64,000 nucleotides of DNA, taken from the NCBI GenBank assembly GCA_038065095.1, contig JBBTRR010000001.1, positions 113,546-177,545 of the forward strand. Reading direction: 5' to 3'. The notes beneath the pieces were generated by a model. That model saw only the letters and a list, made by a program, of their open reading frames with translations, was not told the origin of the DNA and did not search any database. Position numbers and translations under genes: made by a program. Shown piece by piece: positions 11,203 to 63,601 of the stretch; the first letter of the stretch is position 1, and every line of letters begins with the position of its first letter. The stretch is from Patescibacteria group bacterium. GTDB lineage: Bacteria; Patescibacteriota; Minisyncoccia; JACQLN01.

Positions 11203-11218
11203 CCAAACTGTACACAGT

Positions 11219-11818: not shown

Positions 11819-11878
11819 TTTTTATTTTTAACAAAAGTATCCTCACATAAGAGGATTTTTTATTGTCCTAGTAAATTT

Positions 11879-13773: not shown

Positions 13774-13798
13774 AAAGGGAATTAATGGAAGAAATGGG

Positions 13799-42663: not shown

Positions 42664-42670
42664 TTTGATT

Positions 42671-43606
42671 ATGATTAAAGAAATTGGTGATTATATAATA
42701 GTAAATTATCATTACGTTGAAGACACTAGGCTAGATTGGGGTGGTATTCACCCCTGTTCTGTAAAAGAATTTGAAAGGCAGGTTGATTTTTTATCTAAAA
42801 ATTTTGAAATTGTTTCTATGGGTCAGGTTTTTAATTCTGCAAAAAATGGATTAAGTGGAAAGTTTTGTGCCATTACTTTTGATGATGGGTTAAAAGGGCA
42901 ATATGAAAATGCTTTACCGATTTTACTTAACAATAAAGTTATCGGTACTTTTTTTCCAATAACCTCAACTTTTGAAGGTAGATTGCCGGCTACTCATAAA
43001 GTACATGCTTTGCTTTCGCATATATCTTCTTTAGAGCTTATTGATATTTTTCATAAATTTATTAAAGAATTTTATCCAGATATTGAGTCCACATATTTTA
43101 TCCCTAAAGATAAGCGTTTATTTGAACGAAGAAAACATGAAGATTTATTCACCGCTAATTTTAAAGAAACTATGATTAGCTTACCAGAAGATATAAAGGG
43201 CAGGTTTTTAAGATATTGTTTTAAAATGATGAAGCTTGATGAGAAAAAAATAAGCAAAGAAATTTTTATGAATAAAGACGATGTTGTAAATTTGTGTGGT
43301 CAAAAAATGGAAATAGGTAGCCATTCCCATGGGCATTATTCTATGTCGGCAGTTGGGGCAGAGTTTTTAAAAAAAGATATTCAACTCTCTAAAGATATTT
43401 TGTCTAACTTACTTAATAAAAATATTGATACTTTTTCTTATTCGCATGGTCATTACACGGATTTTGGTATAAAAGTATTAAAAGATATGGGGTTTAAGAA
43501 TGCTGTAACAATCGAACCTCGTTCTGTTACAAAAGAAGATAATGCTTTTTTGTTACCACGATATGATGCTAACGATATTAGGGATTTTATTAGTAATATT
43601 AACTAA
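42671..43606 (+). CDS. Polysaccharide deacetylase (NodB/CE4 family)
   Basis: CAITFDDGLKGQYENALPIL, HSHGHYSMS and YSHGHY. An alternative TTG start lies at 42665. Confidence 0.75.
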   Translation: MIKEIGDYIIVNYHYVEDTRLDWGGIHPCSVKEFERQVDFLSKNFEIVSMGQVFNSAKNGLSGKFCAITFDDGLKGQYENALPILLNNKVIGTFFPITSTFEGRLPATHKVHALLSHISSLELIDIFHKFIKEFYPDIESTYFIPKDKRLFERRKHEDLFTANFKETMISLPEDIKGRFLRYCFKMMKLDEKKISKEIFMNKDDVVNLCGQKMEIGSHSHGHYSMSAVGAEFLKKDIQLSKDILSNLLNKNIDTFSYSHGHYTDFGIKVLKDMGFKNAVTIEPRSVTKEDNAFLLPRYDANDIRDFISNIN

Positions 43607-43609
43607 ATA

Positions 43610-44506
43610 ATGTCCGATAATAAATTTGATTATAGTCAGGCTAAATACGAAAAAATAAACTGTAACTTATGCAGTCAAGACAATAATGAACCCATTAGTC
43701 GTAAGGATCGTTATGGCTTACGAGTTCAGACGGTGATTTGTATAAATTGTGGTCTAATTTTTATTAATCCTAGAATGAGTCGAATTGATTATGATCAATT
43801 TTATCAATCTACTTACAGGGCACAACTGGAGGAACGTAATGGGAAAAAAATTGATCTAGATAATCTTTTTATTAAGTCTACAAAATTGGGGCAAAAGTTA
43901 GTTGAACGAATTGGCGATTATATAAATTCCGGTTTAACTCTAGAAATTGGATCAAGTTGCGGTGGTATCTTAAACGGTCTTAAACTGGCTAGACCATATT
44001 TAGAAATTTTAGGGTTAGAACCTTCTTCCATAGAGGCCAAATATGCTAATGACAAAGGCATAAAGACTTTCGTTTCAATGTTTGAGGGTTTTCAGGAGTC
44101 TCTGCCTTCTTTGCAAAATATTTTTATAGTGCGCAGTTTTAATCATTTGCTCGGCCCGGCTGGTTTTATAAAGTGGTCGCACGACCAGCTTTCTTCGGGA
44201 GGTAAGTTAGTAATTATGGTTATTGATTTTATAGAAGCTTGTCGTAATCGTGGCGCACTAAAAACACAAATTGATCATCCTTATATGTTTACTCAAAAAA
44301 CCCTAGTTAGTTTTGTGCAAAGTGGTGGTTTTGATATAGAATACAATATTGTTGAAGGTGATTATATTTATCTGGTTGCAAGAAAAAATAACCATAAACC
44401 TTTTAACAAATTGGAAATAAACCCTCTGGCCTATAAAGATGCAAAGAAATATTTGAAGCCGTTCAAGCTGTGGTGGAATTATCAGGTTAATAAGTTATTT
44501 AATTAG
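43610..44506 (+). CDS. SAM-dependent methyltransferase with an N-terminal Cys4 zinc ribbon (sugar C-/O-methyltransferase-like)
   Basis: CNLCSQ...CINCGLIFINP zinc ribbon, then LEIGSSCGGILNGL. Paralog of 52210-53187. Confidence 0.65.
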   Translation: MSDNKFDYSQAKYEKINCNLCSQDNNEPISRKDRYGLRVQTVICINCGLIFINPRMSRIDYDQFYQSTYRAQLEERNGKKIDLDNLFIKSTKLGQKLVERIGDYINSGLTLEIGSSCGGILNGLKLARPYLEILGLEPSSIEAKYANDKGIKTFVSMFEGFQESLPSLQNIFIVRSFNHLLGPAGFIKWSHDQLSSGGKLVIMVIDFIEACRNRGALKTQIDHPYMFTQKTLVSFVQSGGFDIEYNIVEGDYIYLVARKNNHKPFNKLEINPLAYKDAKKYLKPFKLWWNYQVNKLFN

Positions 44507-44508: not shown

Positions 44509-45846
44509 ATGATGAATACTATTTTTATTACTTCGTTTCATCCATCAATAGGTCAAAATATTCTATCAGGAGATGTGGTAAAGAAACTACTGTTAAGAGA
44601 AGATGTAAGGATTGTTATTTTTTGTCCGGACTATAAAACAAGTTATTTTAAAAATGAATTTGATCATCCTCATATATTTATTGAAGGTATTAAAATCGAA
44701 AAACCGACATGGCATGATATTCTTTTTGGTTATATAAGTCGATCAGTCATTAGCAGTTCAACTTTACTTATACATCGAAAAGAACTTTTTTACAGGAAAA
44801 AAAAGATTTTACCTTTTGTGTTTTCTTATTTCTTAGTGATTTTAGGCCGAATGTTTTTTCTAAAAAAAGTTATTAGATGGTTAGATCAACTAACATCTCC
44901 CAAAAGTAAATTTGAAAACTATTTTAAAAAATACAATCCTAAACTAATTTTTGCCACAGATGTATTTAATCGAGATGATATTGATTTTTTGGCATGTGCT
45001 AAAAGAGCAGGTGTATTTAGGGTCGGTATGGTTCGTTCTTGGGATAACATAACGGGGAAAGGCTTGATTCGTATAAAGCCAGATATGTTGATCGTTCCAA
45101 ACGGAATAATAAAAGAAGAGGTTATAAAATATCAAAGCATACCACCCAAATATATATATGTGAGCGGGTTACCGCAAATGGATTTTTATGTTAAAAACAC
45201 AGACAGGATGAGTAGAGAAGTTTTTTTTTCAAAAATTGGTTTAAATCCTAACAAAGTTACTATTTTTGTAGCCCCCCATGGTAGACGCTTTTTTAATGAT
45301 GATGGTTTTTTATTAGAAAAACTTAAAGGATTACCTTATCAATATATAGTTCGTCTGCCCCCCAATGACACTATTAATTATCTCAATTTTATTCCTAGCT
45401 CCATTTTTTTTATTGAACATCCCGGTATATCATTTAAAGAGGGTGTATACAATAACAGGGAATTGTCCTTGAGCGATTCTTTTATGTTGGCTACTGAACT
45501 TTTTTATGCTGATGTTGTATTAAACTATGGTTCCACCATTTCTATTGAAGCTGCTTTTTACGATAAACCGATCATAAATTTTTTTGGTGATGCCCAAAAA
45601 AATTTACCATATATACAAAGCGAAAGAAGATTTTTTGACTTTAGTCATTTGAATAAGCTGTGGAATCTAAATTTTTGCAAGGTATCATATAATTTTGATG
45701 ATCTTAAAAAGCAAATTGATGAATACTTAAAAAACCCCTTACTAGATAAAAAGGGTCGATCAGATTTTTTGAGGCTGCAAGCAGGATATTTAGATGGGAA
45801 ATCGGGGGCTAGAATTGCGGATTTTTTATTAAATCACCTGAACTAG
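44509..45846 (+). CDS. GT-B-fold transferase, paralog family member 2 of 4
   Basis: VRSWDNITGKG, IVRLPPND, VVLNYGSTISIEAAFYDKPIINFFGD. Confidence 0.55.
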   Translation: MMNTIFITSFHPSIGQNILSGDVVKKLLLREDVRIVIFCPDYKTSYFKNEFDHPHIFIEGIKIEKPTWHDILFGYISRSVISSSTLLIHRKELFYRKKKILPFVFSYFLVILGRMFFLKKVIRWLDQLTSPKSKFENYFKKYNPKLIFATDVFNRDDIDFLACAKRAGVFRVGMVRSWDNITGKGLIRIKPDMLIVPNGIIKEEVIKYQSIPPKYIYVSGLPQMDFYVKNTDRMSREVFFSKIGLNPNKVTIFVAPHGRRFFNDDGFLLEKLKGLPYQYIVRLPPNDTINYLNFIPSSIFFIEHPGISFKEGVYNNRELSLSDSFMLATELFYADVVLNYGSTISIEAAFYDKPIINFFGDAQKNLPYIQSERRFFDFSHLNKLWNLNFCKVSYNFDDLKKQIDEYLKNPLLDKKGRSDFLRLQAGYLDGKSGARIADFLLNHLN

Positions 45847-45852: not shown

Positions 45853-46470
45853 ATGAATTTTTTCAATAAAAATATAATAGTTAATCATCATTACGTTGAA
45901 GACCCAAGCAAAAATTTAAAAGGGATACATCATTTTCCTATCGACGATTTCGATAAACATATAAGTTTTTTATCGAAAAATCTTAATGTTATTTCTATAC
46001 CAGAGGTTTACCAACCGGCCAATAAGGGAAGTTCCGAAAAGAGTTGTGTAATAACTTTTGATGATTGTTTAAAGGATTAGTGGGACAATGCTCTACCTAT
46101 TCTAGAAAAAAATAACGTCTTAGCTACTTTTATTTGTAAAAATTTGTTTATGTCTGAAAATCATGTTATTTCTTTATATAAAAGGGGTCATACTATAGGT
46201 GGTCATACCCATAAGCACGATGCTCTAGATTCTTTAGAGACTAGTGAGATTAAATCTGATGTTGTTTTAGGTAGAGATAAATTGTTAGAAATTCTAGGTT
46301 TTAAGCCCAACGTATTCTCTTATCCCCACGGCCGTTACAATAAGTCTATTTTAGAAGTTGTAGAAAAAGCAGGATTTACCTATGGTGTAACCACAGAAAG
46401 GAGGGGTTTAAACTCAAAAGAGAATCCAGTAGCTGTTCCAAGGTTTGATGCGACAGATTTGATTATATGA
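45853..46470 (+). pseudogene. Polysaccharide deacetylase paralog interrupted by a single in-frame TAG at 46078-46080
   Basis: VITFDDCLKD-TAG-WDNALPILEKNNVLATF aligns to AITFDDGLKGQYENALPILLNNKVIGTF of the intact paralog. The TAG replaces the Gln codon. The downstream half carries GGHTHKHD and YPHGRY. Confidence 0.6.
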
Positions 46471-46477: not shown

Positions 46478-47854
46478 ATGAAAACAATTTTTATAAGCAT
46501 TCTTCAAGGAGTCGAAGCAAAAAATATATTAAGAACTGATATATATAAAACTCTAATATCCCAACCAGATGTTAGGTTGGTTTTTTTTGTGGGCAGTAAA
46601 GATAAAATTGAATATTACAGTAAGGAATTTTATAATGACAGAATTATCTATGAAGTTGTTCCGAATTTTAGAGTTACAGTAGGAGAAATAATTTTAAGTT
46701 TTTTAAAGTTTAAACTTATCAATACCGAAACTATGGATTTAAGAAGACACATGGCAGCTCGCGATAGTAAATTCCATATAGTGTATTTTCCAATATCATA
46801 TATTTTTAATAGAATTTTTGCTAGATCCTTTGTTAGAAAAATTGTTAGATGGTGTGATATGAGATTTGTTCATAACAATATGTTTAAATTTGTTTTTGAT
46901 AAATATAAACCGGATGCTGTTTTCCTTGCTCATTTATTCGATGATATAGAGGTTGCAATGCTAAAGGAAGCCAAAAGACGCAAAGTTTTTAGCTTTGGGT
47001 TTATAAATTCTTGGGATAAATTAACTACTCGATGCATGATGAGAGCATTACCCAATAAATTATTTGTTTACAATAATATTGTTAAAGAAGAAGCTCATAA
47101 ATTAGGCGATATGAAATTATTGGATATTATTGCTGTGGGTATACCACATTACGATTTTTATTTTAAGGAAAAAGCTAACCCTAAAGAATTTCTTTCGAAA
47201 CATTATGGAATAGACATTTCAAAAGAAATATTATTATATTCGCCTTTAGGTAAATATTTTAGCAATTCAGATTGGGAAGTTATCGATTTAATTCAAGATT
47301 ATATTGTTAAGGGCTCGCTAATTAAGAGTGTGGAGTTACTTGTAAGATTTCAGCCTAATGATTTTCTTGATGAAAAAGAAATTGAAAAGCGACCATGGTT
47401 AAAATATTGTTGGCCTGGTGTAAGGTTTTCTAATAAAAGAGGCGTAGATTGGGATATGAGTAATAATGATCTAAGACATTTACACGATACTTTAGAAAAT
47501 ATATCTATACTTATTTGTTATGCTTCTAGTATAAGTATAGATGCGATTGTTTTTGATAAACCCGTTATAAATATTAATTTTGAAGTTAAAGAAAAACAGA
47601 AACTTTCTAAAACACCTACTTATTTTTACAAGACGAATCATTACCAAAAGGCTTTAAAAACTGGAGGCATAAAGCTTGTAGAAAATAAGGATCAGTTATT
47701 ATTTTGGATAAATAAATACTTATCGGATCCATCCATAGATAAAGACAACAGAAAGAAACTTGTAGAACAGCAATGTTATTTTTTAGATGGACATGCCGGA
47801 GAAAGAATTGGTTTAAATATGCTTTCTTTAATTAATTATGAAATTAGGAATTGA
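46478..47854 (+). CDS. GT-B-fold transferase, paralog family member 3 of 4
   Basis: INSWDKLTTR, VRFQPND, ICYASSISIDAIVFDKPVININFE. Confidence 0.55.
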   Translation: MKTIFISILQGVEAKNILRTDIYKTLISQPDVRLVFFVGSKDKIEYYSKEFYNDRIIYEVVPNFRVTVGEIILSFLKFKLINTETMDLRRHMAARDSKFHIVYFPISYIFNRIFARSFVRKIVRWCDMRFVHNNMFKFVFDKYKPDAVFLAHLFDDIEVAMLKEAKRRKVFSFGFINSWDKLTTRCMMRALPNKLFVYNNIVKEEAHKLGDMKLLDIIAVGIPHYDFYFKEKANPKEFLSKHYGIDISKEILLYSPLGKYFSNSDWEVIDLIQDYIVKGSLIKSVELLVRFQPNDFLDEKEIEKRPWLKYCWPGVRFSNKRGVDWDMSNNDLRHLHDTLENISILICYASSISIDAIVFDKPVININFEVKEKQKLSKTPTYFYKTNHYQKALKTGGIKLVENKDQLLFWINKYLSDPSIDKDNRKKLVEQQCYFLDGHAGERIGLNMLSLINYEIRN

Positions 47855-48158
47855 TATTGTAAAAATAAATAAATTTAAAAAGATTAAAAAAACCGATTTT
47901 TATTTATGGCAGAAAGTTTTTACTAAAAATGAATGGGAATATTCTTTTAAGGATAAACTTTATGCTTGTCATCTAGCTGGTATCTTTGCAGCAAAAGAGG
48001 CAGCTTTTAAGGCTATGGGTTGGACTAATTTTTCTGATTTGGGCAAAATTGAAGTAAGTCATGTAAAGGGTGGTTTGCCTATGTTAAATTTTAAAAAATT
48101 GCATGTCAGTATAAGCCATAGCGATGATACCGCTATAGCCGTAGTAATAGGACAATGA
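47838..48158 (+). CDS. acpS: Holo-[acyl-carrier-protein] synthase (4'-phosphopantetheinyl transferase, AcpS type)
   Basis: MKLGIDIVKINKF, FAAKEAAFKAMG, HVSISHSDDTAIAVV. Confidence 0.75.
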   Translation: MKLGIDIVKINKFKKIKKTDFYLWQKVFTKNEWEYSFKDKLYACHLAGIFAAKEAAFKAMGWTNFSDLGKIEVSHVKGGLPMLNFKKLHVSISHSDDTAIAVVIGQ

Positions 48159-49810
48159 ATTTTATAGATATACAAAAAAAGGTTGGTTTACTATTTGATA
48201 ATTCTGAAACATCTGTTTCGGAATATTTGGCCGTTAATTCAAAAGTTAATGAATTAAATAAAAAAGATATTCCTAGCTATTTTAGAAAGATTAAAAGTGC
48301 TTTTTTGGGTAGTTTTACGCTGCAGGGTTTGCCAGAAATTTTTAGAGTTGAGGGAGTGTTTCATAATTTACTTAGTGATAATTATCTTGCCCCCTACAAT
48401 CAGTTCTCACAACAAATTTTAGATAATACAAGCGATTTATATAAGTTCAATCCCAGTTTAGTTTATTTAATTTTGGATAAAAAAGATATTGTAGATTTGG
48501 GTCATATAAATGATTTAATAAGTAAATTAAAATCTCGTAGCAGTATAAAGAAGGTTATACTTTTTAATTTTGTTGAAGAAGTTTCCAATTGGAACAATAG
48601 TTTATCTAATATGTTTGAAAGTGATAATTTTGTGTCTATATTTGATTTCAATAATTTCTTAAAAGAAATAGGTCATAAAGAATATTGGAATACTAAATAT
48701 GCAGAGTTGGGTGATTTAAGGTTGAGTCCTCAAGCTTTTCCTAAATTGGCTGAAAAAATTTTAAGTTATGCGGTGGCTGAAAGTGGTGGTACTAAAAAAT
48801 GCTTAATGACAGATTTAGATGGTACTTTATGGAATGGTGTTGTTGGCGAAGATGGAGTAGATAATATATCTTTAGATTTAGATTTACAAGATATAATTTT
48901 GCAGTTATATAAAAATGGAATTGTTTTAACTATAAATAGTAAAAATAATTTTCAAGACGCCATGGATGTTTTTGAAAAACATCCTAAGACAGTTTTAAAT
49001 AAAAACCATTTTGCTACTTGGCGTATAAATTGGCAAGATAAATATGTAAATGCTCAAGAAATGGCAAAAGAATTAAATTTGGGTGTTGATAGCTTTGCTT
49101 TTATAGATGACGATCCTTTTCAAAGAAATATGATTAGAGAATTTTTGCCCGAAGTAGCTGTTTTTCATCCGAACAGATTAAAGGATTATATAGGCTTTTC
49201 TTCTTTAGTTATTACAGAGGAAGATAAAAAACGTAGTGAGATGTATGTGCAGGAAAGACAGAGGAATGAACTCAAGACAACCTTAAAGGGCCTGGATGAT
49301 TTTTTGAAAGGGTTGTCGCTTGAGGTTATTGTAAGTGACATGAATAACGCTAATATTTCTAGGATTTCTCAGTTAACGCAAAAAACAAACCAATTTAATT
49401 TAACAACACGTAGATATTCCGAAGAAGAATTAAGGCGTTTTCTAGATAATGGTAAAATACTAGCTATATCAGTAAAAGACAGGTTTGGTGATTATGGTCT
49501 TACAGGTATATGCATGGTTAAGTTTAAAGAGAGCGAGTGGTTTGTAGATAACTTTTTATTAAGTTGTCGCATACTGGGTAGGGGCGTAGAGAATACTTTT
49601 TTGTCTTATATTTGTAACTTGGCTAAAACTGAAGGAGCTAGTAAGGTTATAGGAGAGTTTATTCCAACTGCAAAAAATAAACCATCGGAAAATTTCTTAA
49701 AAGATTTTGAGTTTAATTGTGTTTCAAGTGATGTTGCGAGGATTATTTATGAGGAAAAATTAGATAAAGAATATAGTTATTCTCCGTTTATAAAAATCAA
49801 ACATGAATAA
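48155..49810 (+). CDS. FkbH-like HAD-IIIC phosphatase/acyltransferase-domain protein (glyceryl-ACP forming family)
   Basis: HAD motif I CLMTDLDGTLWNGVVGEDGVDNI, IDDDPFQR, and a C-terminal GNAT-like region (...RILGRGVENTFLSYI...). Confidence 0.6.
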   Translation: MNFIDIQKKVGLLFDNSETSVSEYLAVNSKVNELNKKDIPSYFRKIKSAFLGSFTLQGLPEIFRVEGVFHNLLSDNYLAPYNQFSQQILDNTSDLYKFNPSLVYLILDKKDIVDLGHINDLISKLKSRSSIKKVILFNFVEEVSNWNNSLSNMFESDNFVSIFDFNNFLKEIGHKEYWNTKYAELGDLRLSPQAFPKLAEKILSYAVAESGGTKKCLMTDLDGTLWNGVVGEDGVDNISLDLDLQDIILQLYKNGIVLTINSKNNFQDAMDVFEKHPKTVLNKNHFATWRINWQDKYVNAQEMAKELNLGVDSFAFIDDDPFQRNMIREFLPEVAVFHPNRLKDYIGFSSLVITEEDKKRSEMYVQERQRNELKTTLKGLDDFLKGLSLEVIVSDMNNANISRISQLTQKTNQFNLTTRRYSEEELRRFLDNGKILAISVKDRFGDYGLTGICMVKFKESEWFVDNFLLSCRILGRGVENTFLSYICNLAKTEGASKVIGEFIPTAKNKPSENFLKDFEFNCVSSDVARIIYEEKLDKEYSYSPFIKIKHE

Positions 49811-50033
49811 GCTTTTAAATATTTTAAGCAGAGTACTAGATATTAAAATAGAAGATATAAATGATAATATTGGTCCCGACAACACAGAAGGTTGGGATTC
49901 TTTTAATGGTTTGTTATTAGCCACCGAACTAGAAAAAGAATTTAAAGTTAAATTTACCATGGAAGATATTGTTTCGATTAAAAATGTTGGGGATATAAAA
50001 ACTATTTTAAAAAAACGTGGTTTAAAAATTTAA
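49803..50033 (+). CDS. Acyl carrier protein
   Basis: 76 aa with GWDSFNGLLLATELEKEF; the DS(L/F) phosphopantetheine-attachment serine is in a helix II context. Confidence 0.7.
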   Translation: MNKLLNILSRVLDIKIEDINDNIGPDNTEGWDSFNGLLLATELEKEFKVKFTMEDIVSIKNVGDIKTILKKRGLKI

Positions 50034-50037
50034 TCCT

Positions 50038-50463
50038 ATGAGCTTGAAACCTAACAGTTTGTTATATGAAGAGATAAAAATAGGCGATATTTTTTCTTTC
50101 GAGTATTTTGTAGATGAGTCTACTGTTTTTAAATTTGCTGAACTTACTGGTGATTTCAATCCTCTTCACATGGACGAGTCTTATGCCAAAGAAACTCTAT
50201 TTGGGGGCAGAATTGTTCATGGAATGTTATTAGCCGGATTATTTTCTACGTTGGTAGGAATGCTTTGCCCTGGTGAGCGGGCTTTGTATTTATCACAAGA
50301 TATTAGTTTTAGAAACCCGCTTTTTTTGGGTAAAAAAATAAAAGTAGAAGGGAAAGTTCTTAGTAAGTTCGATGGAATAAATGTTTTAGAAATTAAGACA
50401 TTAATAAAAGATTTAGAAGGGAATATTTTTGTAGATGGATTAGCAAAGATAAAAGTTAGATAA
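50038..50463 (+). CDS. MaoC-like (hot-dog fold) dehydratase
   Basis: FAELTGDFNPLHMDESYAKETLFGGRIVHGML. Confidence 0.75.
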   Translation: MSLKPNSLLYEEIKIGDIFSFEYFVDESTVFKFAELTGDFNPLHMDESYAKETLFGGRIVHGMLLAGLFSTLVGMLCPGERALYLSQDISFRNPLFLGKKIKVEGKVLSKFDGINVLEIKTLIKDLEGNIFVDGLAKIKVR

Positions 50464-50467
50464 TAAA

Positions 50468-51160
50468 ATGTTTAAAGATAAAATAATATTAATATTAGGC
50501 GGTACAGGCAGTATCGGTTCGTCTATAGCTGAAGCTTTCAATGACGAAGGAGCTATCGTTTGCTGTCATGGGCAAACTGGAGGCTATTCGGCTGATTTAA
50601 GAAATAGTACCGAGACGACTCAGCTAATAGAAAAAATTATTGGTAAATACGGGTTTATAGATGTAATCGTTAACTCTGTTAGTAATCTAGCTAATATTGC
50701 TAGTTTCGAAAAGAAAGATTGGGCTGATTTTATTGGCCATTTAGAAATACAGCTTAAATCCTGTGTTGAAACTACAAAATTAGTTTTGCCCTATATGAAA
50801 AAACGGGGTAATGGCAAGATAATAAATATTTTAAGCAGCTATACGATTGGTAGCCCTCCTTCAAGTTTATCTGATTATGTTACAGCTAAGTATGCTTTAT
50901 TAGGATTGACTAAAGCTTTAGCTAAAGAGTTGGGACGGTTTAATATAAATGTAAACGCAGTTTCTCCTAGCTTTATTAAAAATTCTTTTACGAAAAATAT
51001 ACCAGAAAAACTAGATGAGATATTGATTTCACAAACGCCTATGGGGCGACTGACTACAGAAAAAGATGTTGCTAACACTGTTTTATTTTTAGCTTCAGAA
51101 AAGGCCAATTTTATTAGTGGAGAAAACATAGTAGTTTCTGGAGGTAGTGTTATGAACTAA
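50468..51160 (+). CDS. SDR-family 3-oxoacyl-ACP reductase-like (FabG-like)
   Basis: ILILGGTGSIGSSIA, YVTAKYALLGLTKALAKEL (YxxxK), and IVVSGG at the C-terminus. Confidence 0.75.
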   Translation: MFKDKIILILGGTGSIGSSIAEAFNDEGAIVCCHGQTGGYSADLRNSTETTQLIEKIIGKYGFIDVIVNSVSNLANIASFEKKDWADFIGHLEIQLKSCVETTKLVLPYMKKRGNGKIINILSSYTIGSPPSSLSDYVTAKYALLGLTKALAKELGRFNINVNAVSPSFIKNSFTKNIPEKLDEILISQTPMGRLTTEKDVANTVLFLASEKANFISGENIVVSGGSVMN

Positions 51161-51168
51161 ATACTAGG

Positions 51169-52182
51169 ATGAATATATCTCTATACGAAGATAGTGACTT
51201 CAAAATATTTTCTGAATATATAAACAAGTTTTTTAAACCTAACTATATACTTGGTTACAAGGAATATATAAATTGGCAATATGAAAACTCTCTTTACATA
51301 TTAAAGATAGAGAACAGAGTGGCTGGCCATTTTGGTTTTAGAGATATACCTTACAAAATCGGACATAATGTTGAAAATGTTAGAGTTTTGATGAATTTAT
51401 TTGTTGTACCAGGACTTAGAACAATGGGTGCAGGCGCATTTTTGGCTAAAAAAGTTTTTGATACTCCAACCCCCATACTTGTTTCTGGTTATACACCAAT
51501 ATCTCAAAAGCTTTTTTCTTATTTAAGTAAAAGTTGGAAAGAAGCTGGGAATTTTTGTCGTTTTATTAAAATTTTAAATCCCGGAAATAACTTTTTAAAA
51601 AAATATAATATTCCTCATGTTGTTCCCGAGTATAGTAGGGGAAAAAAATATTTAAAAATAAAAAAACAAAAAAATGTTATTATGTTGGAAAGAGCTTGGT
51701 TAGAGGCTAAGGAGAGATATACTGTCACAGTAGAACGAAATCAGGATTATTTAAAATGGCGTTTTTTAGAAAATCCATCTATAGACTATTCGGTATTTAC
51801 TTGTTTTAAAGACGATTCTCCCTGCGGTTTTATTATTGGTAGGATAGAGTCGGATCAGGGTTTTACTATGGCTAGGATCATAGATTTTATAACTGTAGAA
51901 GAAGCAGAAATTCCACTAATAGAAAATTTTGTAAGATGGGCTTATGAGAGTGATTGTGATGCTGTTGATTTTTTATTTTCCGGTAAATTTTATGAAAAAA
52001 GTTTAAAAGAAAGTGGTTTTTTTGATGTTACTGATACAGATTTTGTTAACTTTCCTGTACTTTTTAGTCCGATATCAAATAAAAAAACTTTTATAAATAT
52101 AGCCCACAATTTGGATTTCCCTTTAGATCAGTGTTATTTTAATAAAGCTGATGGGGATCAAGATAGACCTAATCCACATTAA
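51169..52182 (+). CDS. Hypothetical protein (possible acyltransferase, GNAT/FemAB-like fold; weak)
   Basis: 337 aa with no clear motif. It is translationally adjacent to the ACP cassette. Confidence 0.35.
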   Translation: MNISLYEDSDFKIFSEYINKFFKPNYILGYKEYINWQYENSLYILKIENRVAGHFGFRDIPYKIGHNVENVRVLMNLFVVPGLRTMGAGAFLAKKVFDTPTPILVSGYTPISQKLFSYLSKSWKEAGNFCRFIKILNPGNNFLKKYNIPHVVPEYSRGKKYLKIKKQKNVIMLERAWLEAKERYTVTVERNQDYLKWRFLENPSIDYSVFTCFKDDSPCGFIIGRIESDQGFTMARIIDFITVEEAEIPLIENFVRWAYESDCDAVDFLFSGKFYEKSLKESGFFDVTDTDFVNFPVLFSPISNKKTFINIAHNLDFPLDQCYFNKADGDQDRPNPH

Positions 52183-52209
52183 TTGATATATCAGATATTT
52201 ATAAAAGTT

Positions 52210-53187
52210 ATGAAGAAAAAAGCATTAGATGAGTTTCCTTATGGCGAGGCCGAGTTAGAAAATATCCCCTGTAATTTATGTGGGTCGCTAGATCATAAAA
52301 TACTGGCTAAGCGTGACCGCAACAATATCGAGATTAGCACGGTTATATGTAAGAGATGTGGTCTGATCTTTTTAAATCCAAGGATGACACGTACTTGGTA
52401 TCAAAAATATTATCAATTTGAATACCGCAGACAAGTTGAATCTTACGGCTCTAAGGAATCGGCTAGTTTGGACGATCTTTTTGATTGGTCTAAAAAACAC
52501 GGCCGATTTTTGAGCACTCTACTGGGTCAATATTTAGTTTCCGGCGGTCTTACAATTGAAGCTGGTTCTAGTGTTGGAGGAATTTTGAAGGGTTTAAACC
52601 CTTTTTTAAAGGGAGAGGTTATTGGTATAGAGCCTTCTAAATTGGAAGCAGAGTATGCTATAAGAAATGGAATCCCAACTTTGCCTGTTTTTTTTGAAGA
52701 TATTGGAACTAATGATATAGGTAAATTAAAAGGAGCAACTAATATTTTTTGTGTTCAGACCTTAAATCATCTTCAAGACCCTAAAGGTTTTTTTGACTGG
52801 GCTTACAATTCTTTAGTCGACAATGGGCGATTAGTTTTGGAGGTGAAGAATTTTAGACACCATGCTAAAAAAGTAGGTAATCTTCGCCAAGCTATTCAAA
52901 TAGACCATACTTACATGTTTTTACCGGAGACTTTAGAAAATTTTATAAAGGCTTGTGGATTTGAAATTATATTTAAGGATATAGATGAATATAAAAGCAA
53001 GAAAGAACTAGAGAATCAGGGGAAGCCCGATAGTCATATGCGTTTTGTGGCTGTTAAATCCGAGCGAGGTAAATACAAAATTTCTTATGATTATAAAAAA
53101 ATTAAAAAAACAATCAATTTTTTAAAGATTTATCTTAATTGTTTTTTTAATTATCGCTTACCTAGAAAAGTTAAATCGTTACTATAA
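52210..53187 (+). CDS. SAM-dependent methyltransferase with an N-terminal Cys4 zinc ribbon; paralog of 43610-44506
   Basis: CNLCGS...CKRCGLIFLNP and IEAGSSVGGILKGL. The ORF could start at 52183. Confidence 0.65.
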   Translation: MKKKALDEFPYGEAELENIPCNLCGSLDHKILAKRDRNNIEISTVICKRCGLIFLNPRMTRTWYQKYYQFEYRRQVESYGSKESASLDDLFDWSKKHGRFLSTLLGQYLVSGGLTIEAGSSVGGILKGLNPFLKGEVIGIEPSKLEAEYAIRNGIPTLPVFFEDIGTNDIGKLKGATNIFCVQTLNHLQDPKGFFDWAYNSLVDNGRLVLEVKNFRHHAKKVGNLRQAIQIDHTYMFLPETLENFIKACGFEIIFKDIDEYKSKKELENQGKPDSHMRFVAVKSERGKYKISYDYKKIKKTINFLKIYLNCFFNYRLPRKVKSLL

Positions 53188-58007: not shown

Positions 58008-59546
58008 ATGTCAAGAAAAGTTCTTATTATATATCCACCAAACCAGTTAAACCCCACTGAAGCTCCTCGTCCAGAAGGGTCATTGGGCCCTCTTTACTTA
58101 GCTTCGGCTTTGGAAAATGCAGGTATAGAAACTGATCTGGTGGATGCTTCTGTAGGAACGGAAGACGATAAGCTGGAAGACACTTTTAACAACCCAGTGA
58201 TGCAACTAAACGGTCTTATAAGGATTGGTATGTCTTTTGATCGTATCCGTGAGTTTATCGCTTTAGGCGGTTACGATGTGGTAGCGATTCATTCAAATTT
58301 TACTCCCCAGACCCGTATGGTTTTGGAAACAGCCAAAATAATAAAGGAGATCAATCCAGAAATTTTGGTTATCAGTGGAGGGGTAAATGCTCGGCATATT
58401 CTGGAACGTCTTTTGGGTATAGGTTTTGTTGATTTAATCTGCATCACCGAAGGAGAAAGGATTATTGTTAAAATAGTTAAACAGTGGAGGCTTAATCGAT
58501 CATTTGACGGTGTAGATGGTGTTGTCTTTATGGAATCGGGCCGGTTGGTTTATCGGCCAGTAAATTCCGATAGTGTGGTCCAAAATTTAGACGAGTTGCC
58601 TGTGCCGGCGTGGCATAAATTGCCTTTGGCTAAATATGCCGAGATTACTTCTCCGCATGGCGATGTGGTTTTGAGTGAGAAATATATTTATGCTCCCATG
58701 ATGACTTCTCGCGGTTGCCCATTTAAATGTGCTTATTGCCATATATCGTTAGAAAAAGAAAAACATGACGATATTGGTAATCTAAGACTCAAGTCTGTGG
58801 ATCGCGTTATGCGTGAAATAGAAATTTTAAAATCTTTAGGTGTTACCAAGGTTTACATCGAAGATGATAGCTTGCTTGCCAAGAAAGCTCGCGTTAAAGA
58901 AATTTTTACACGCCTTTTGGGTGCTGGCTTAAAAATCGCCGATGTAAATGGTGTCAACCTTGTTCATCTTTTTGTAAGAGACAGAGCTACAGGAAAATTA
59001 AGGGTGGATAGAGATTATTTAGAGTTGCTCTGTGCATCTGGTTTTGATCAAATTAGTTTTCCTGTTGAATCCGGTGTTCAAAGGGTTTTGGATAAATATG
59101 CTACCGGTAAACTCGTTTTAGAAACAATGGACATAGCTGGGTTGGTAAGGGTCGCTTCCGATGTAGGTATTTCTTGTCCTGTCGGTATCATGATGGGTTT
59201 TCCAGATGAAACAGAGGCAGAGATTCTCCAAAGTGTGGAATTAGCAAAAAAGTTAGTTGATGCTGGAGCCAAGTATTGTTCTTTTTATATTCCCATTCCT
59301 TTTCCGGGTAGTCAGCTTTATCATATGGCTATTGCCGGTGGACATCTGGATGCAAATTTTGATCCAGACATTATGAACTGGCATCGGCCGGTTATGAAAA
59401 ACACTACCGTGCCGCCGGAAAGAGTTTTGGAACTTCGTGAATGGGCTTGGCGTTCGGTTAATCGAGATGACTATGTAGCTGAACGGTTGAGTAAAAACAT
59501 AGGTACAAGGTGGAGTTCTTTTAAGCCAGTTAGCGATGAAAATTAA
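58008..59546 (+). CDS. B12-binding radical SAM domain protein (class B radical SAM enzyme)
   Basis: N-terminal cobalamin-binding-like Rossmann domain, then TSRGCPFKCAYCH (C-x3-C-x2-C radical SAM cluster motif). 512 aa. It has its own promoter-like TTGACA/TATGGT upstream. Confidence 0.8.
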   Translation: MSRKVLIIYPPNQLNPTEAPRPEGSLGPLYLASALENAGIETDLVDASVGTEDDKLEDTFNNPVMQLNGLIRIGMSFDRIREFIALGGYDVVAIHSNFTPQTRMVLETAKIIKEINPEILVISGGVNARHILERLLGIGFVDLICITEGERIIVKIVKQWRLNRSFDGVDGVVFMESGRLVYRPVNSDSVVQNLDELPVPAWHKLPLAKYAEITSPHGDVVLSEKYIYAPMMTSRGCPFKCAYCHISLEKEKHDDIGNLRLKSVDRVMREIEILKSLGVTKVYIEDDSLLAKKARVKEIFTRLLGAGLKIADVNGVNLVHLFVRDRATGKLRVDRDYLELLCASGFDQISFPVESGVQRVLDKYATGKLVLETMDIAGLVRVASDVGISCPVGIMMGFPDETEAEILQSVELAKKLVDAGAKYCSFYIPIPFPGSQLYHMAIAGGHLDANFDPDIMNWHRPVMKNTTVPPERVLELREWAWRSVNRDDYVAERLSKNIGTRWSSFKPVSDEN

Positions 59547-62254: not shown

Positions 62255-63601
62255 ATGAGCAAAAAAACCGTATTTTTAGCCATACCTAATCATATTTCTG
62301 CGTCAGATTTATTACGTACTCATTACTTGGAGTATTTGGCTTCGAAATATAAAGTTATTGTGATAACACCTTTTTTAAATTCCAATGATGCAGTTAAACA
62401 AAAGCATTTTTTATCACCAGATGTGGAGTATAAAAAAAGAGATTTAGAAAACCCAAGATTTTGGATGTTTTTTAAATTTTTACGTATTTGTTGGGTTAAC
62501 GAATTTGATTATATTACTTCTATAAAATATTGGTATAAAAGGCCTAATTATAAAAATAGTTTGGCCAGGCGGATAGTTAGAACTATAGGCAGGCCTTTTT
62601 CTAAATTTTTAACAGCGAATTTTTTTACTAAAGTTGAGTATAGATTATTGCCCAAGTCAAAAGATTTTACCGAACTAGTTAAACAACATAATCCAGTATT
62701 GGTTATTACAGCCACCCCAGGTTTTGATCCGTGGGAAGCCGAAATAATTTTTTTAGCAAAACGTGAAAAAACTCCTACAGTAGCGGTTAATTTTAGTTGG
62801 GATAATTTAACTACTAATTCTAAACACATTCGCAAAACTGATTTTTTGATTGCTTGGAATAATATTATGAAAAAAGAGGCTTTAGAGATTCATAACTATA
62901 CTACCGCTAAGGTTTTTGTATCTGGTACGCCAAGGTTTGACCCTTATTTCGATGTTGCTCAATCAGAGCCAACCAAAGAAAAATTTTTGGTAAGCAAAGG
63001 CTTAAATCCAAGTTATAAAACTATTTTTCATACTACGGTGACCAAAGCGTATCCTTTCCAGAAAAAATATATCTATGATCTAATAAAACTTAGAAAAGAA
63101 GGAAAGATACCCTATGTGAATTTATTTATACGAATTCATCCCTTAGATATTTATGATAATTATAGAGAGTTTTTTAATATGCCCGATTTATATATAGAAC
63201 CCGCCGGCCGATCAGGCAGTAAAGCAGTGGAGATGAATTATCAAGACTTGCTTAATCTTAAATATTCTCTAAAATATACCGATTTAAATATAAATTATGC
63301 CTCCACCATTTCTATAGAAGCCTGTATTTTTGATAAGCCTATTATAAATATTGGTTATTTAGATCGTTTTAAATTGGCTTACGAATTTAATCATTACATT
63401 CCTATATATAAGAGTGGTGCTGTAAGGCTGGCCAAAACAGACGAAGCTTTAAAAGATTTAATAAACTTGTATTTAGCAGACCCATCTTTAGATGGAGCTA
63501 ATAGAAAAAAAATTGTGTTAGATTACGTTATTTTTTTAGATGGCTTATCTTATAAGAGAAGTGTAGATGCTTTAGAACAAATAATAAAATCTGTTATATG
63601 A
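62255..63601 (+). CDS. GT-B-fold transferase, paralog family member 4 of 4
   Basis: NFSWDNLTTNS, IRIHPLD, INYASTISIEACIFDKPIINIGY. Confidence 0.55.
   Translation: MSKKTVFLAIPNHISASDLLRTHYLEYLASKYKVIVITPFLNSNDAVKQKHFLSPDVEYKKRDLENPRFWMFFKFLRICWVNEFDYITSIKYWYKRPNYKNSLARRIVRTIGRPFSKFLTANFFTKVEYRLLPKSKDFTELVKQHNPVLVITATPGFDPWEAEIIFLAKREKTPTVAVNFSWDNLTTNSKHIRKTDFLIAWNNIMKKEALEIHNYTTAKVFVSGTPRFDPYFDVAQSEPTKEKFLVSKGLNPSYKTIFHTTVTKAYPFQKKYIYDLIKLRKEGKIPYVNLFIRIHPLDIYDNYREFFNMPDLYIEPAGRSGSKAVEMNYQDLLNLKYSLKYTDLNINYASTISIEACIFDKPIINIGYLDRFKLAYEFNHYIPIYKSGAVRLAKTDEALKDLINLYLADPSLDGANRKKIVLDYVIFLDGLSYKRSVDALEQIIKSVI

What the first reader, a model, noticed from the sequence alone, without database searches (positions are those of the whole stretch)
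47838..52182. Self-contained ACP cassette (AcpS - FkbH-like - ACP - MaoC dehydratase - SDR ketoreductase - unknown 337-aa protein) embedded in the glycosylation island
Six co-directional, overlapping or tightly spaced genes encode a dedicated phosphopantetheinyl transferase, an FkbH-like HAD enzyme, a discrete ACP with the DSF serine, a hot-dog dehydratase, a FabG-like reductase and a possible acyltransferase.

Established knowledge: FkbH-family enzymes load 1,3-bisphosphoglycerate-derived glyceryl units onto ACPs.

No ketosynthase is present, and there is no fatty-acid synthesis context. This is notable in what looks like a reduced genome.

Inference: the cassette produces an ACP-tethered glyceryl or hydroxyacyl unit that is transferred onto the surface glycan or protein. 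This would be an unusual non-lipid ACP-dependent decoration pathway.
Basis: partly seen in the sequence, partly recalled or inferred. Interest (0 to 1): 0.78.

Follow-up and report, generated by a model that had tools for sequence, protein, structure and literature searches.

The report
Carrier-protein cassette for acylating surface sugars
A groundwater Patescibacteria genome carries a real six-gene operon that most likely builds a three-carbon hydroxy-acid (lactyl or glyceroyl) on a small carrier protein and attaches it to a surface sugar; the same module turns out to be widespread but apparently unstudied.

Summary
Six co-directional genes at 47838-52182 encode an AcpS-type phosphopantetheinyl transferase, a full FkbH enzyme (TIGR01686, 315 bits against a cut-off of 147), a discrete ACP, a MaoC dehydratase, an SDR reductase and a 337-aa protein. 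I show the 337-aa protein to be a tandem-GNAT acyltransferase.

- **Donor link.** In other genomes the 337-aa family is fused to ACP, or to FkbH plus ACP. It therefore takes its acyl group from this carrier.
- **Product.** MaoC and SDR are optional add-ons. Elsewhere they are fused to each other, and once to an ACP in a pseB/NeuB sugar locus. This mirrors the known glyceryl to pyruvoyl to lactyl route of polyketide starter units, so lactyl-ACP is the likely product.
- **Acceptor.** A NodB-type deacetylase co-occurs with the acyltransferase (14/22 against 3/58 loci). This suggests de-N-acetylation followed by re-acylation of an amino sugar.
- **Own AcpS.** The cassette carries an AcpS mainly in CPR bacteria and archaea.

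The module is not rare: at least 599 loci in species-level genomes. It has precedents, such as C. jejuni cj1302, and its chemistry is inferred rather than shown. I rate it a new variant of a known kind, of moderate interest.

The parts
47838..48158 (+). AcpS-type (group I) 4'-phosphopantetheinyl transferase, 106 aa. It converts the cassette's apo-ACP to holo-ACP.
   Evidence: PF01648 56.7 bits and TIGR00556 59.6 bits, both above cut-off. The acpS equivalog TIGR00516 scores 48.0 against 59.8, so it is below cut-off. The G-x-D and KEAxxK motifs are conserved in 14 homologues. An AcpS lies next to FkbH in 11/15 CPR and archaeal loci against 3/65 other bacterial loci.
48155..49810 (+). FkbH-family enzyme, 551 aa: an N-terminal FkbH_N/BF1531-like domain, a HAD-IIIC phosphatase domain and the FkbH transferase region. 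Inferred role: it loads a glyceryl unit from 1,3-bisphosphoglycerate onto the ACP.
   Evidence: TIGR01686 315.4 bits (cut-off 146.65) over residues 213-520. PDB 3SLR (BF1531) matches residues 35-347 with E 4.8e-39. DxDxT and the S-C-R cysteine are invariant in 12 diverse homologues. More than 7000 homologues were found.
49803..50033 (+). Dedicated acyl carrier protein, 76 aa; the attachment serine lies in the W-D-S-F motif.
   Evidence: PF00550 34.1 bits (cut-off 20.8). The NF002148 acyl carrier protein subfamily model scores only 22.6 against 71. An ACP was detected near FkbH, almost always directly downstream, in 66/80 related loci. W-D-S is conserved in 45 sequences.
50038..50463 (+). MaoC/(R)-specific hydratase-type hot-dog dehydratase, 141 aa. 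Inferred role: it removes the 3-OH of glyceryl-ACP to give enol-pyruvoyl/pyruvoyl-ACP.
   Evidence: PF01575 68 bits. The best PDB relatives are 3IR3 (HTD2, E 1e-23) and 1IQ6 (PhaJ). D39 and H44 of the hydratase-2 motif are conserved. It is fused to SDR in L052, L055 and L071 and to SDR plus ACP in Maritalea L087.
50468..51160 (+). Classical SDR, FabG-like, 230 aa. Inferred role: it reduces pyruvoyl-ACP to lactyl-ACP.
   Evidence: adh_short_C2 148 bits. FabG equivalogs score below their cut-offs, for example NF004198 at 152.9 against 296. The GGTGSIG and S...YxxxK motifs are present. It is paired or fused with MaoC next to FkbH in several phyla.
51169..52182 (+). Inferred role: it transfers the C3 acyl group from the ACP to an amine of a sugar.
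42665..43606 (+). Intact NodB-type (PF01522) polysaccharide/sugar N-deacetylase, 313 aa. It is the candidate supplier of the free amine that is re-acylated.
   Evidence: PF01522 61.2 bits, with weak IcaB/PdaB/PgaB similarity. In the syntenic CPR locus L007 its orthologue lies directly upstream of AcpS-FkbH; the same family also adjoins FkbH in L008 and L013. The deacetylase co-occurs with GNAT337-like genes in 14/22 loci against 3/58 (Fisher p = 1e-7).
45853..46470 (+). Second, damaged copy of the deacetylase. It is a single reading frame interrupted by an in-frame TAG at 46078-46080, and it lacks about 105-120 central residues compared with the 42665-43606 paralogue.
   Evidence: Frame translation and BLASTP: the N fragment is 48% identical to residues 11-77 and the C fragment 32% identical to residues 200-305 of the intact paralogue. 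PF01522 scores 57.5 bits on the C fragment. The same split is present on all related contigs.
46478..47854 (+). TagB/TagF-like (Glyphos_transf) transferase, 458 aa, whose stop overlaps the AcpS start. It is context only; it may be the transferase that handles the modified unit.
   Evidence: PF04464 38.3 bits and weak NF046086 (BFO_1060 family) 34.8 bits against a cut-off of 200. An orthologue (435 bits) lies upstream of the cassette in L007.
52183..53187 (+). SAM methyltransferase with a Cys-rich N-terminus, directly downstream. It could O-methylate the hydroxy-acyl group (speculative).
   Evidence: Methyltransf_23 32.6 bits. It is 42% identical to the paralogue at 43610-44506. Gene callers start it at 52210, giving 325 aa. 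The precedent is the di-O-methylglyceroyl group on C. jejuni pseudaminic acid (PMC3068675).

Best explanation
The cassette is a stand-alone pathway that makes a three-carbon hydroxy-acyl thioester on a dedicated carrier protein and uses it to N-acylate a surface-glycan sugar.

Proposed steps:
1. AcpS converts apo-ACP to holo-ACP. The cassette carries its own AcpS because the host, a Patescibacteria/CPR bacterium, probably has no fatty-acid synthase (inferred).
2. FkbH takes 1,3-bisphosphoglycerate, removes the 3-phosphate through its HAD domain and transfers D-glyceryl to the ACP through its conserved cysteine. The family assignment is shown; the chemistry is inferred from characterised FkbH enzymes.
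3. The MaoC dehydratase eliminates the beta-hydroxyl to give enol-pyruvoyl/pyruvoyl-ACP (inferred).
4. The SDR reduces the alpha-keto group to give lactyl-ACP (inferred).
5. The 337-aa tandem-GNAT enzyme transfers the acyl group from the ACP to a free amino group of a hexosamine-type sugar. The link to the ACP is shown by gene fusions; the acceptor is inferred.
6. That amine is produced by the NodB-type deacetylase at 42665-43606. The logic is deacetylate then re-acylate, as with NodB/NodA/NodF or LpxC/LpxD.

In relatives that lack MaoC and SDR the same core would install glyceroyl instead of lactyl.
For: - **Domain identities and catalytic residues:**
- **FkbH-ACP adjacency:** an ACP near FkbH, almost always directly downstream, in 66/80 related loci.
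- **Rosetta-stone fusions:** FkbH-ACP-GNAT337 in one ORF (L033, 1084 aa; P0238, 1068 aa; P0222), and ACP-GNAT337 (L080, P0173, P0237, P0245). An AMP-binding-GNAT337 fusion (P0287) shows the family is coupled to acyl-activating modules in general.
- **Acyltransferase fold:** a tandem GNAT closest to Eis aminoglycoside acetyltransferases, NMT and glucosamine N-acetyltransferases. These are all N-acyltransferases acting on amines.
- **MaoC and SDR act together:** they occur as a pair next to FkbH in CPR, Nitrospinota, Clostridia and Leptospiraceae. They occur as MaoC-SDR fusions (L052, L055, L071) and as a MaoC-SDR-ACP tridomain directly after FkbH in Maritalea.
- **Chemical precedent:** FkbH forms glyceryl-ACP from 1,3-BPG (PMC7489565). 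Pyruvoyl- or lactoyl-ACP starter units are described as derived from 1,3-BPG in PMC6162330, whose reference list includes He et al. [quoted passage not shown]
- **Deacetylase co-occurrence:** 14/22 against 3/58 loci, adjacent in six phyla.
- **Glycan context:** glycosyltransferases, a nucleotide-sugar dehydrogenase, an epimerase and TagB-like genes. The Maritalea homologue sits between pseB and a NeuB-family synthase.
- **Own AcpS:** present in 11/15 CPR and archaeal loci against 3/65 others.
Against: - No step has been measured. The acyl group (lactyl, glyceroyl or pyruvoyl), its stereochemistry and the acceptor are all inferred.
- The dehydratase and reductase here are MaoC-type and classical SDR, not the PKS DH/KR domains in which the glycerate-to-lactate chemistry was shown. 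The parallel is functional, not homologous.
- The deacetylase copy nearest the cassette is broken by an in-frame stop; only the copy about 4 kb upstream is intact.
- No sugar aminotransferase and no nonulosonic-acid synthase is present in the window, so the acceptor sugar is unidentified.
- The co-occurrence statistics are not corrected for phylogeny and rest on my own ORF calls within 8 kb either side.
- Some loci have MaoC without a detectable SDR (L010, L011, L014, L018).
- Absence of FAS II from the rest of the genome was not checked.
Confidence: 0.55

Rival explanations
1. The core pathway is the same, but the group installed is glyceroyl (2,3-dihydroxypropanoyl), possibly O-methylated by the flanking methyltransferases as in C. 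jejuni. On this reading MaoC and SDR act on something else or tailor the product differently, for example by FkbK-like oxidation of C3.
For: - N-glyceroyl and di-O-methylglyceroyl groups are documented on pseudaminic acids (PMC5378307; PMC3068675), whereas I found no documented N-lactyl glycan in the searches I ran.
- Many related loci have FkbH-ACP-GNAT337 without MaoC or SDR (L008, L013, L019 and the Acidobacteria loci).
- Methyltransferase genes flank the cassette.
Against: - MaoC and SDR are translationally coupled between the ACP and the acyltransferase.
- Elsewhere they are fused to each other, and to the ACP that follows FkbH. This is hard to explain unless they act on the ACP-bound glyceryl unit.
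- The conserved hydratase-2 Asp/His fit beta-elimination.
Confidence: 0.2
2. The acyl-ACP is made as proposed, but the acceptor is not a de-N-acetylated sugar. It could instead be a hydroxyl of a teichoic-acid-like polymer, giving an ester analogous to Dlt D-alanylation, or an amine of a surface protein, in the manner of N-myristoyltransferase.
For: - Four TagB/TagF-like genes lie in the island, one overlapping the AcpS start.
- NMT is among the best structural matches.
- The adjacent deacetylase copy is damaged.
- Eight of 22 GNAT337-type loci show no deacetylase within 8 kb.
Against: - The closest folds are N-acetyltransferases acting on amino sugars and aminoglycosides (Eis; glucosamine N-acetyltransferases 4zm6 and 5kf1).
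- Deacetylase linkage across six phyla is strong.
- The protein is predicted as a compact globular tandem GNAT of high confidence and shows no obvious hydrophobic N-terminal signal or membrane segment by eye (no predictor was run). Transfer is therefore probably cytoplasmic, onto a nucleotide- or lipid-linked precursor.
Confidence: 0.15
3. The genes are a fragment of a polyketide or tetronate-type secondary-metabolite pathway (methoxymalonyl-ACP or tetronate glycerate unit), or a remnant of fatty-acid synthesis, and have nothing to do with glycans.
For: - FkbH-ACP pairs are best known from PKS/NRPS clusters (PMC7489565; PMC10143770).
- A plasmid homologue (Pseudalkalibacillus, L088) sits in a KS/FabH-like cluster.
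- SDR and MaoC resemble FabG and hydratases.
Against: - The profiled ORFs of the 64-kb window contain no KS, AT, FabH-like enzyme, acyl-CoA dehydrogenase (FkbI) or 3-hydroxyacyl-CoA dehydrogenase (FkbK).
- The operon is continuous with glycosyltransferase and deacetylase genes.
- The ACP and SDR fall far below the NF002148 ACP subfamily and FabG equivalog cut-offs.
- The acyltransferase fused to this ACP elsewhere is a GNAT, not a KS.
Confidence: 0.05

Closest known systems
Lactyl starter-unit modules of trans-AT polyketide synthases (FR901464 Fr9A GAT-ACP-DH-KR; lankacidin lactoyl-ACP). Sources: He et al. 2014 Angew Chem, listed in the references of PMC6162330.
   Same: The set and order of activities are the same. 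An FkbH-type glyceryl loader acts on a carrier protein, a dehydratase acts on glycerate, and a reductase then acts on the alpha-ketone, giving lactyl-S-carrier from 1,3-bisphosphoglycerate.
   Different: Here every activity is a separate small protein. The dehydratase is MaoC-type and the reductase a classical SDR, not PKS DH/KR domains. No ketosynthase follows. The product goes to a GNAT acyltransferase in a glycan locus rather than into a polyketide.
FkbH/FkbJ and OzmB/OzmE-type glyceryl-ACP formation (methoxymalonyl-ACP and tetronate pathways)
   Same: The FkbH domain scores well above the family cut-off, with the HAD motif and the conserved Cys. A dedicated ACP is encoded next to it (PMC7489565).
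   Different: The FkbI/FkbK dehydrogenases, the FkbG O-methyltransferase and a FabH-like tetronate synthase are all absent. The N-terminal half resembles Bacteroides BF1531. The context is a glycan locus.
[quoted passage not shown]
   Same: An FkbH-domain gene lies inside a surface glycosylation locus, and a glycerate-derived acyl group is found on an amino sugar (PMC7099621; PMC3068675). Methyltransferases lie nearby in both.
   Different: In C. jejuni the role of cj1302 is not established in the papers I could read. The window has no nonulosonic-acid genes. It has MaoC and SDR, which predict lactyl rather than glyceroyl, and its own AcpS and tandem-GNAT transferase.
NodB/NodA/NodF (Nod factor) and LpxC/LpxD (lipid A): de-N-acetylation followed by acyl-ACP-dependent N-acylation (from established knowledge)
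   Same: The logic is the same. A NodB-family (PF01522) deacetylase is genetically coupled to an acyltransferase that draws on a dedicated ACP.
   Different: The acyl group is a C3 hydroxy acid, not a fatty acid. The transferase is a tandem GNAT and shows no match to NodA or to LbH-type LpxD. No KS such as NodE is present.
Eis-like tandem-GNAT acetyltransferases, N-myristoyltransferase and glucosamine N-acetyltransferases
   Different: Sequence identity is only 9-15%, and no PDB sequence match was found. The donor is inferred to be acyl-ACP rather than acyl-CoA, on the basis of the fusions. The family has its own conserved C-terminal K-x-D-G-D-Q-D-R-x-N motif.

Membership tests
FkbH family (TIGR01686) | Profile match above the curated cut-off that covers the FkbH domain | tested here: met
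   315.4 bits against 146.65, profile positions 2-319 of 323, residues 213-520.
FkbH family (TIGR01686) | HAD-type DxDxT phosphatase motif and a conserved cysteine in the C-terminal transferase region. The catalytic role of the Cys is from my own knowledge of OzmB/FkbH. | tested here: met
   D220, D222, T224 and S470-C471-R472 are invariant in an alignment of 12 homologues of 40-50% identity.
FkbH family (TIGR01686) | A dedicated carrier protein encoded alongside | tested here: met
   The ACP gene overlaps the FkbH stop by 8 nt. An ACP lies near FkbH, almost always directly downstream, in 66/80 related loci.
FkbH family (TIGR01686) | Formation of glyceryl-S-ACP from 1,3-bisphosphoglycerate | not testable with these tools
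   This needs an enzyme assay with intact-mass detection.
Housekeeping AcpP / FAS II | ACP reaches the NF002148 acyl carrier protein subfamily cut-off, and FAS II partners (FabD/H/F/I/Z) are present | tested here: not met
   NF002148 scores 22.6 against 71. No KS, AT or enoyl reductase was found in the ORFs of 90 aa or more profiled across the window. The rest of the genome was not examined.
AcpS (group I PPTase) | PF01648/TIGR00556 match, a size of about 120 aa, and metal and CoA-binding motifs | tested here: met
   56.7 and 59.6 bits, both above cut-off. The G-x-D and KEAxxK motifs are conserved. The stricter acpS equivalog TIGR00516 is not reached (48.0 against 59.8).
FabG (3-oxoacyl-ACP reductase) | Reaches a FabG equivalog cut-off | tested here: not met
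   The best result is NF004198 at 152.9 against 296, and TIGR01830 at 144.8 against 297.75. It is a classical SDR but not a FabG orthologue.
MaoC / (R)-specific enoyl hydratase (hydratase 2) | PF01575 match and the catalytic Asp and His of the hydratase-2 motif | tested here: met
   68 bits. The sequence reads G-D-F-N-P-L-H, with D39 and H44 conserved. PDB relatives are HTD2 and PhaJ.
Methoxymalonyl-ACP pathway (FkbG-K) | FkbI acyl-CoA-dehydrogenase-like and FkbK 3-hydroxyacyl-CoA-dehydrogenase-like enzymes next to FkbH/FkbJ | tested here: not met
   Neither family was found among the cassette or flanking genes.
PKS lactyl-starter loading module (FkbH-ACP-DH-KR) | PKS-type DH and KR domains in a megasynthase, followed by a KS | tested here: not met
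   The dehydratase is MaoC-type and the reductase a free-standing SDR. The cassette SDR shows no PF08659 KR hit, and there is no KS. It works like this module but is not a member.
Tandem-GNAT N-acyltransferases (Eis/NMT-like) | Two consecutive GNAT folds in one chain | tested here: met
Tandem-GNAT N-acyltransferases (Eis/NMT-like) | Acyl-CoA as the donor | tested here: inconclusive
   Fusions to ACP and to FkbH-ACP argue for an acyl-ACP donor.
NodB/NodA/NodF-type deacetylate-and-reacylate system | A NodB-family deacetylase genetically linked to an ACP-dependent N-acyltransferase | tested here: met
   A PF01522 deacetylase lies in the island. It co-occurs with the GNAT337 family in 14/22 loci against 3/58. 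The transferase shows no match to NodA, so this is an analogy and not membership.

The most novel reading that the evidence does not exclude
The tandem-GNAT enzyme is structurally close to N-myristoyltransferase. It might transfer the lactyl (or glyceroyl) group from the ACP not to a sugar but to the N-terminus or a lysine of a surface protein such as a pilin or an S-layer protein. That would be an enzymatic, carrier-protein-dependent protein lactylation system in CPR bacteria and archaea that lack fatty-acid synthesis.
Probability: 0.07. Interest if true: 0.85.

Novelty: new variant of a known kind. Interest (0 to 1): 0.55.

Why it matters
**Open question addressed.** Bacterial surface sugars often carry unusual N-acyl groups such as glyceroyl, di-O-methylglyceroyl and hydroxybutyryl. 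These shape immune recognition and phage binding. For the glyceroyl group, the Tannerella forsythia study states that elucidating the genetic basis 'remains a major challenge' (PMC5378307).

**What this cassette offers.** The cassette and its many relatives give a concrete, testable gene set: FkbH, ACP, a tandem-GNAT transferase and a NodB-type deacetylase, with MaoC and SDR as an optional glyceroyl-to-lactyl converter.

**Functional assignment.** It gives a function to a large family annotated only as hypothetical protein: about 1170 representative clusters at E<=1e-30.

**Meaning for reduced genomes.** If the host lacks fatty-acid synthesis, as is usual for CPR bacteria (not checked here), the cassette shows that an ACP/AcpS pair can be kept purely for glycan decoration. 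This would caution against reading ACP, AcpS or FabG-like genes in such genomes as remnants of lipid synthesis.

Tried and rejected
- **Housekeeping AcpP/FAS remnant:** rejected. The ACP, SDR and AcpS fall below the ACP subfamily and equivalog cut-offs, and the profiled ORFs of the window contain no KS, AT or enoyl reductase.
- **Methoxymalonyl-ACP or tetronate pathway:** rejected. There is no FkbI, FkbK or FabH-like gene here, although such contexts exist for other homologues (L088; the Bacteroidales loci with KSIII plus a VOC-family protein).
- **Nonulosonic-acid modification in this window:** not supported. No NeuB/PseI, PseB/C or DegT aminotransferase was found. The similarity of the TagB-like proteins to the BFO_1060 family is far below cut-off (35-69 bits against 200).
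- **Sequence search of the 337-aa protein against the PDB:** nothing found. Only the structure prediction was informative.
- **Literature searches:** FkbH with O-antigen, lactyl or polysaccharide gave nothing. A loosely phrased search wasted one query. Only one paper in the library combines FkbH with glycan or pseudaminic acid. The He et al. 2014 paper itself is not in the library and is cited through a reference list.
- **Genome-wide absence of FAS II:** could not be tested, because only 10 kb either side of a gene can be fetched.

Full report
**1. The observation**

All are on the + strand and tightly coupled, with overlaps of 4 and 8 nt and gaps of 4-8 nt. They continue an operon: the first overlaps the stop of an upstream TagB-like gene, and the last abuts a downstream methyltransferase.

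Profile searches confirm every assignment above the curated thresholds:
- AcpS-type PPTase: PF01648 56.7 bits, TIGR00556 59.6.
- FkbH: TIGR01686 315.4 bits against a cut-off of 146.65, residues 213-520, plus HAD-IIIC.
- ACP: PF00550 34.1.
- MaoC dehydratase: PF01575 68.
- Classical SDR: 148 bits.
- The 337-aa protein: a GNAT domain, PF00583 27.6 against 20.7.

The ACP is not AcpP-like: the NF002148 acyl carrier protein subfamily model scores 22.6 against 71.

The catalytic motifs are intact and conserved among homologues:
- FkbH: DxDxT and an invariant S-C-R cysteine.
- ACP: W-D-S.
- MaoC: Asp39/His44.
- AcpS: GxD and KEAxxK.
- SDR: S...YxxxK.

The N-terminal 350 residues of the FkbH protein match the structural-genomics protein BF1531 of Bacteroides fragilis (3SLR, E 4.8e-39).

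**2. Source and context**

The identical FkbH protein lies on 22 contigs from Hainich groundwater metagenomes. NCBI names it a 'HAD-IIIC family phosphatase' of a Patescibacteria MAG.

The first 26 kb of the window hold housekeeping genes: FtsZ, class II ribonucleotide reductase, ComEC, MurD, ClpB, EF-P and NDK.

From about 26 kb to the end of the window lies a lower-GC glycan island, 0.29-0.35 GC through most of 28-56 kb against 0.34-0.41 in the housekeeping part. It contains:
- GT4 and GT2 glycosyltransferases;
- a nucleotide-sugar dehydrogenase, an epimerase and a Gfo/Idh/MocA oxidoreductase;
- a GHMP kinase and a B12-radical-SAM enzyme;
- several methyltransferases;
- four TagB-like paralogues;
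- two NodB-type deacetylase genes.

The ORFs of 90 aa or more that I profiled contain no ketosynthase, acyltransferase, enoyl reductase, sugar aminotransferase or nonulosonic-acid synthase.

**3. The 337-aa protein**

It has no PDB match by sequence, and sources that give its homologues a name call them 'hypothetical protein'.

An AlphaFold model built on 32 homologues is confident: pLDDT 92, pTM 0.90. It is a tandem GNAT. Its closest structures are:

All of these N-acylate amines.

The decisive evidence is gene fusion.
- In a planctomycete (L033) one 1084-aa ORF reads FkbH(45-591)-ACP(642-708)-GNAT337(723-1084).
- P0238 (1068 aa) and the partial P0222 have the same order.
- L080, P0173, P0237 and P0245 are ACP-GNAT337 fusions.
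- P0287 fuses an AMP-binding acyl-activating enzyme to the same family.

The family therefore receives its acyl group from a carrier protein. It is also large: 13,176 representative clusters at E<=1e-3, and 1170 at E<=1e-30. A distant branch (hhalign probability 96.5% over 316 columns) follows FkbH-ACP in 12 Acidobacteria loci.

**4. Distribution and modularity**

Of these, 80 were analysed. They come from CPR bacteria, DPANN, Asgard and Nitrososphaerales archaea, Acidobacteriota, Gemmatimonadota, Planctomycetota, Bacteroidota, Clostridia, Nitrospirota, Leptospiraceae and others.

Using my own ORF calls, phmmer and clustering, I found:
- An ACP is detected near FkbH in 66/80 loci, almost always directly downstream.
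- MaoC is present in 22 loci and the SDR in 18-22.
- The full order AcpS-FkbH-ACP-MaoC-SDR-GNAT337, preceded by a deacetylase and a TagB-like gene, recurs in the CPR locus L007.
- MaoC-SDR-FkbH-ACP occurs in Nitrospinota, Clostridiaceae and Leptospiraceae.

MaoC and SDR are fused in L052, L055 and L071.

On a Maritalea myrionectae plasmid, a protein annotated only as 'SDR family' is in fact a MaoC-SDR-ACP tridomain. It lies directly after an 820-aa FkbH protein, between pseB and a NeuB-family synthase.

Other loci replace MaoC and SDR with a FabH-like KSIII, a VOC-family protein or a methyltransferase. Others replace the tandem GNAT with a left-handed-beta-helix acyltransferase.

FkbH-ACP is therefore a widely used loading cassette in glycan loci, with interchangeable tailoring and transfer parts.

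**5. Why the cassette carries its own AcpS**

An AcpS gene lies next to FkbH in 11 of 15 CPR or archaeal loci but in only 3 of 65 loci from other bacteria. This fits hosts that lack a housekeeping ACP system. That CPR bacteria generally lack fatty-acid synthesis is established knowledge; it was not tested for this genome.

**6. The acceptor**

Within 8 kb of FkbH, a PF01522 (NodB-type) deacetylase accompanies a GNAT337-type gene in 14 of 22 loci. It appears in only 3 of 58 loci without one (Fisher p = 1e-7, not corrected for phylogeny).

The two genes are adjacent, or within about 0.5 kb, in CPR, Omnitrophota, Gemmatimonadaceae, Spirochaetia, Verrucomicrobiia and Planctomycetota loci.

In the window an intact deacetylase lies at 42665-43606. 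A second copy at 45853-46470 is interrupted by an in-frame TAG and lacks about 105-120 central residues.

The simplest reading is removal of an N-acetyl group followed by re-acylation from the ACP. This is the logic of NodB/NodA/NodF and LpxC/LpxD (established knowledge). The acceptor sugar itself is not identified.

**7. Chemistry**

FkbH enzymes make glyceryl-S-ACP from 1,3-bisphosphoglycerate (PMC7489565; PMC10143770). [quoted passage not shown] This comes from He et al. [quoted passage not shown]

A MaoC hydratase-2 enzyme removes a beta-hydroxyl from an acyl thioester, and glyceryl-ACP offers exactly that. The enol product tautomerises to pyruvoyl-ACP, a substrate for an SDR.

I therefore propose glyceryl, then pyruvoyl, then lactyl-ACP, then an N-lactyl sugar. 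Relatives without MaoC and SDR would make N-glyceroyl sugars. All of these chemical steps are inferred.

**8. Comparison with what is known**

The cassette works like a PKS lactyl-loading module but is not a member of that family. Its dehydratase and reductase belong to other families, and no KS follows.

It is a true member of the FkbH family. It is not the methoxymalonyl-ACP pathway, since FkbI and FkbK are absent.

An fkbH-domain gene (cj1302) is noted in the C. jejuni flagellin glycosylation locus (PMC7099621). That strain carries di-O-methylglyceric-acid-modified pseudaminic acid (PMC3068675). The T. forsythia study states that elucidating the genetic basis of N-glyceroyl substitution 'remains a major challenge' (PMC5378307).

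In the searchable library only one paper combines FkbH with glycan or pseudaminic acid. Much of the subscription literature is not covered, so prior description cannot be excluded.

**9. Verdict**

New here are four points:
- assignment of the tandem-GNAT family as the ACP-dependent transferase;
- its link to the deacetylase;
- the modular glyceroyl/lactyl switch;
- the pattern of AcpS retention in lineages without fatty-acid synthesis.

I classify it as a new variant of a known kind, interest 0.55. Confidence is about 0.7 in the general mechanism and about 0.5 in each of two details, the lactyl product and N-acylation after deacetylation.

Noticed in passing
window 45853-46470: A NodB-type deacetylase paralogue forms one reading frame broken by an in-frame TAG at 46078-46080. 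It lacks about 105-120 central residues relative to the intact copy at 42665-43606. The same split (75 aa + 106 aa ORFs) appears on all related contigs, so it is a fixed pseudogene or a shortened or read-through form, not a sequencing error.
   Followed up: partly
window 33635-34987, 44509-45846, 46478-47854, 62255-63601: There are four TagB/TagF-like (Glyphos_transf) paralogues, about 28-29% identical to 46478-47854. They have weak, sub-threshold similarity to the BFO_1060 family (35-69 bits against a cut-off of 200). This suggests a teichoic-acid-like or unusual sugar-phosphate polymer in a CPR bacterium.
   Followed up: partly
window 43610-44506 and 52183-53187: Two paralogous methyltransferases (42% identity) each have a Cys-rich N-terminus (CxxC...CxxC, probably a zinc ribbon). 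One follows the intact deacetylase and the other follows the cassette. Gene callers start the second at 52210 (325 aa) rather than at the TTG at 52183.
   Followed up: no
window 28000-56000 against 1-28000: Most of the glycan island has clearly lower GC (0.29-0.35, with one 2-kb window at 0.39) than the housekeeping part (0.34-0.41). This is typical of variable surface-polysaccharide loci and may indicate horizontal exchange.
   Followed up: no
window 3043-5946, 6451-7023, 58008-59546: Three cobalamin-related genes lie in one 64-kb stretch of a reduced genome: a class II (B12-dependent) ribonucleotide reductase, an ATP:corrinoid adenosyltransferase, and a B12-binding radical SAM enzyme inside the glycan island. 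The last scores best against P-/C-methyltransferase families, below cut-off.
   Followed up: no
window 21412-25203 and 13709-14923: A 1263-aa protein whose only recognisable domain is an N-terminal peptidoglycan-binding domain, and a 404-aa protein with a lamin-tail domain. Both are probably large surface proteins, located just upstream of the glycan island.
   Followed up: no
L087 (Maritalea myrionectae plasmid pHL2708Y3, NZ_CP021332.1) 8098-12076: The RefSeq 'SDR family oxidoreductase' (489 aa) is a MaoC-SDR-ACP tridomain. It follows an 820-aa FkbH protein that has an extra N-terminal region of about 280 aa, in a pseB ... NeuB-family locus. This is a cultured organism in which the proposed chemistry could be tested.
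   Followed up: partly
P0287 (866 aa, metagenomic protein): An AMP-binding (adenylating) enzyme is fused to the GNAT337 family. This indicates that the acyltransferase family is also used with acyl groups activated by adenylation, not only with FkbH-derived ones.
   Followed up: partly
L040, L074, L083, L023 (Bacteroidales and a deltaproteobacterial MAG): A different FkbH-ACP variant has a FabH-like KSIII, an SDR and a glyoxalase/VOC-family protein directly upstream. It probably makes a longer or branched acyl unit and recalls the C. jejuni cj1302-fabH2-acpP arrangement (the latter from memory).
   Followed up: no
L035, L039, L042, L043, L054, L058, L067 (Acidobacteria): A conserved block reads FkbH-ACP-distant GNAT337 homologue, followed on the opposite strand by a sulfotransferase, a FemAB-like GNAT and a nucleotide-sugar dehydrogenase. 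It may represent a sulfated, glyceroylated glycan.
   Followed up: no
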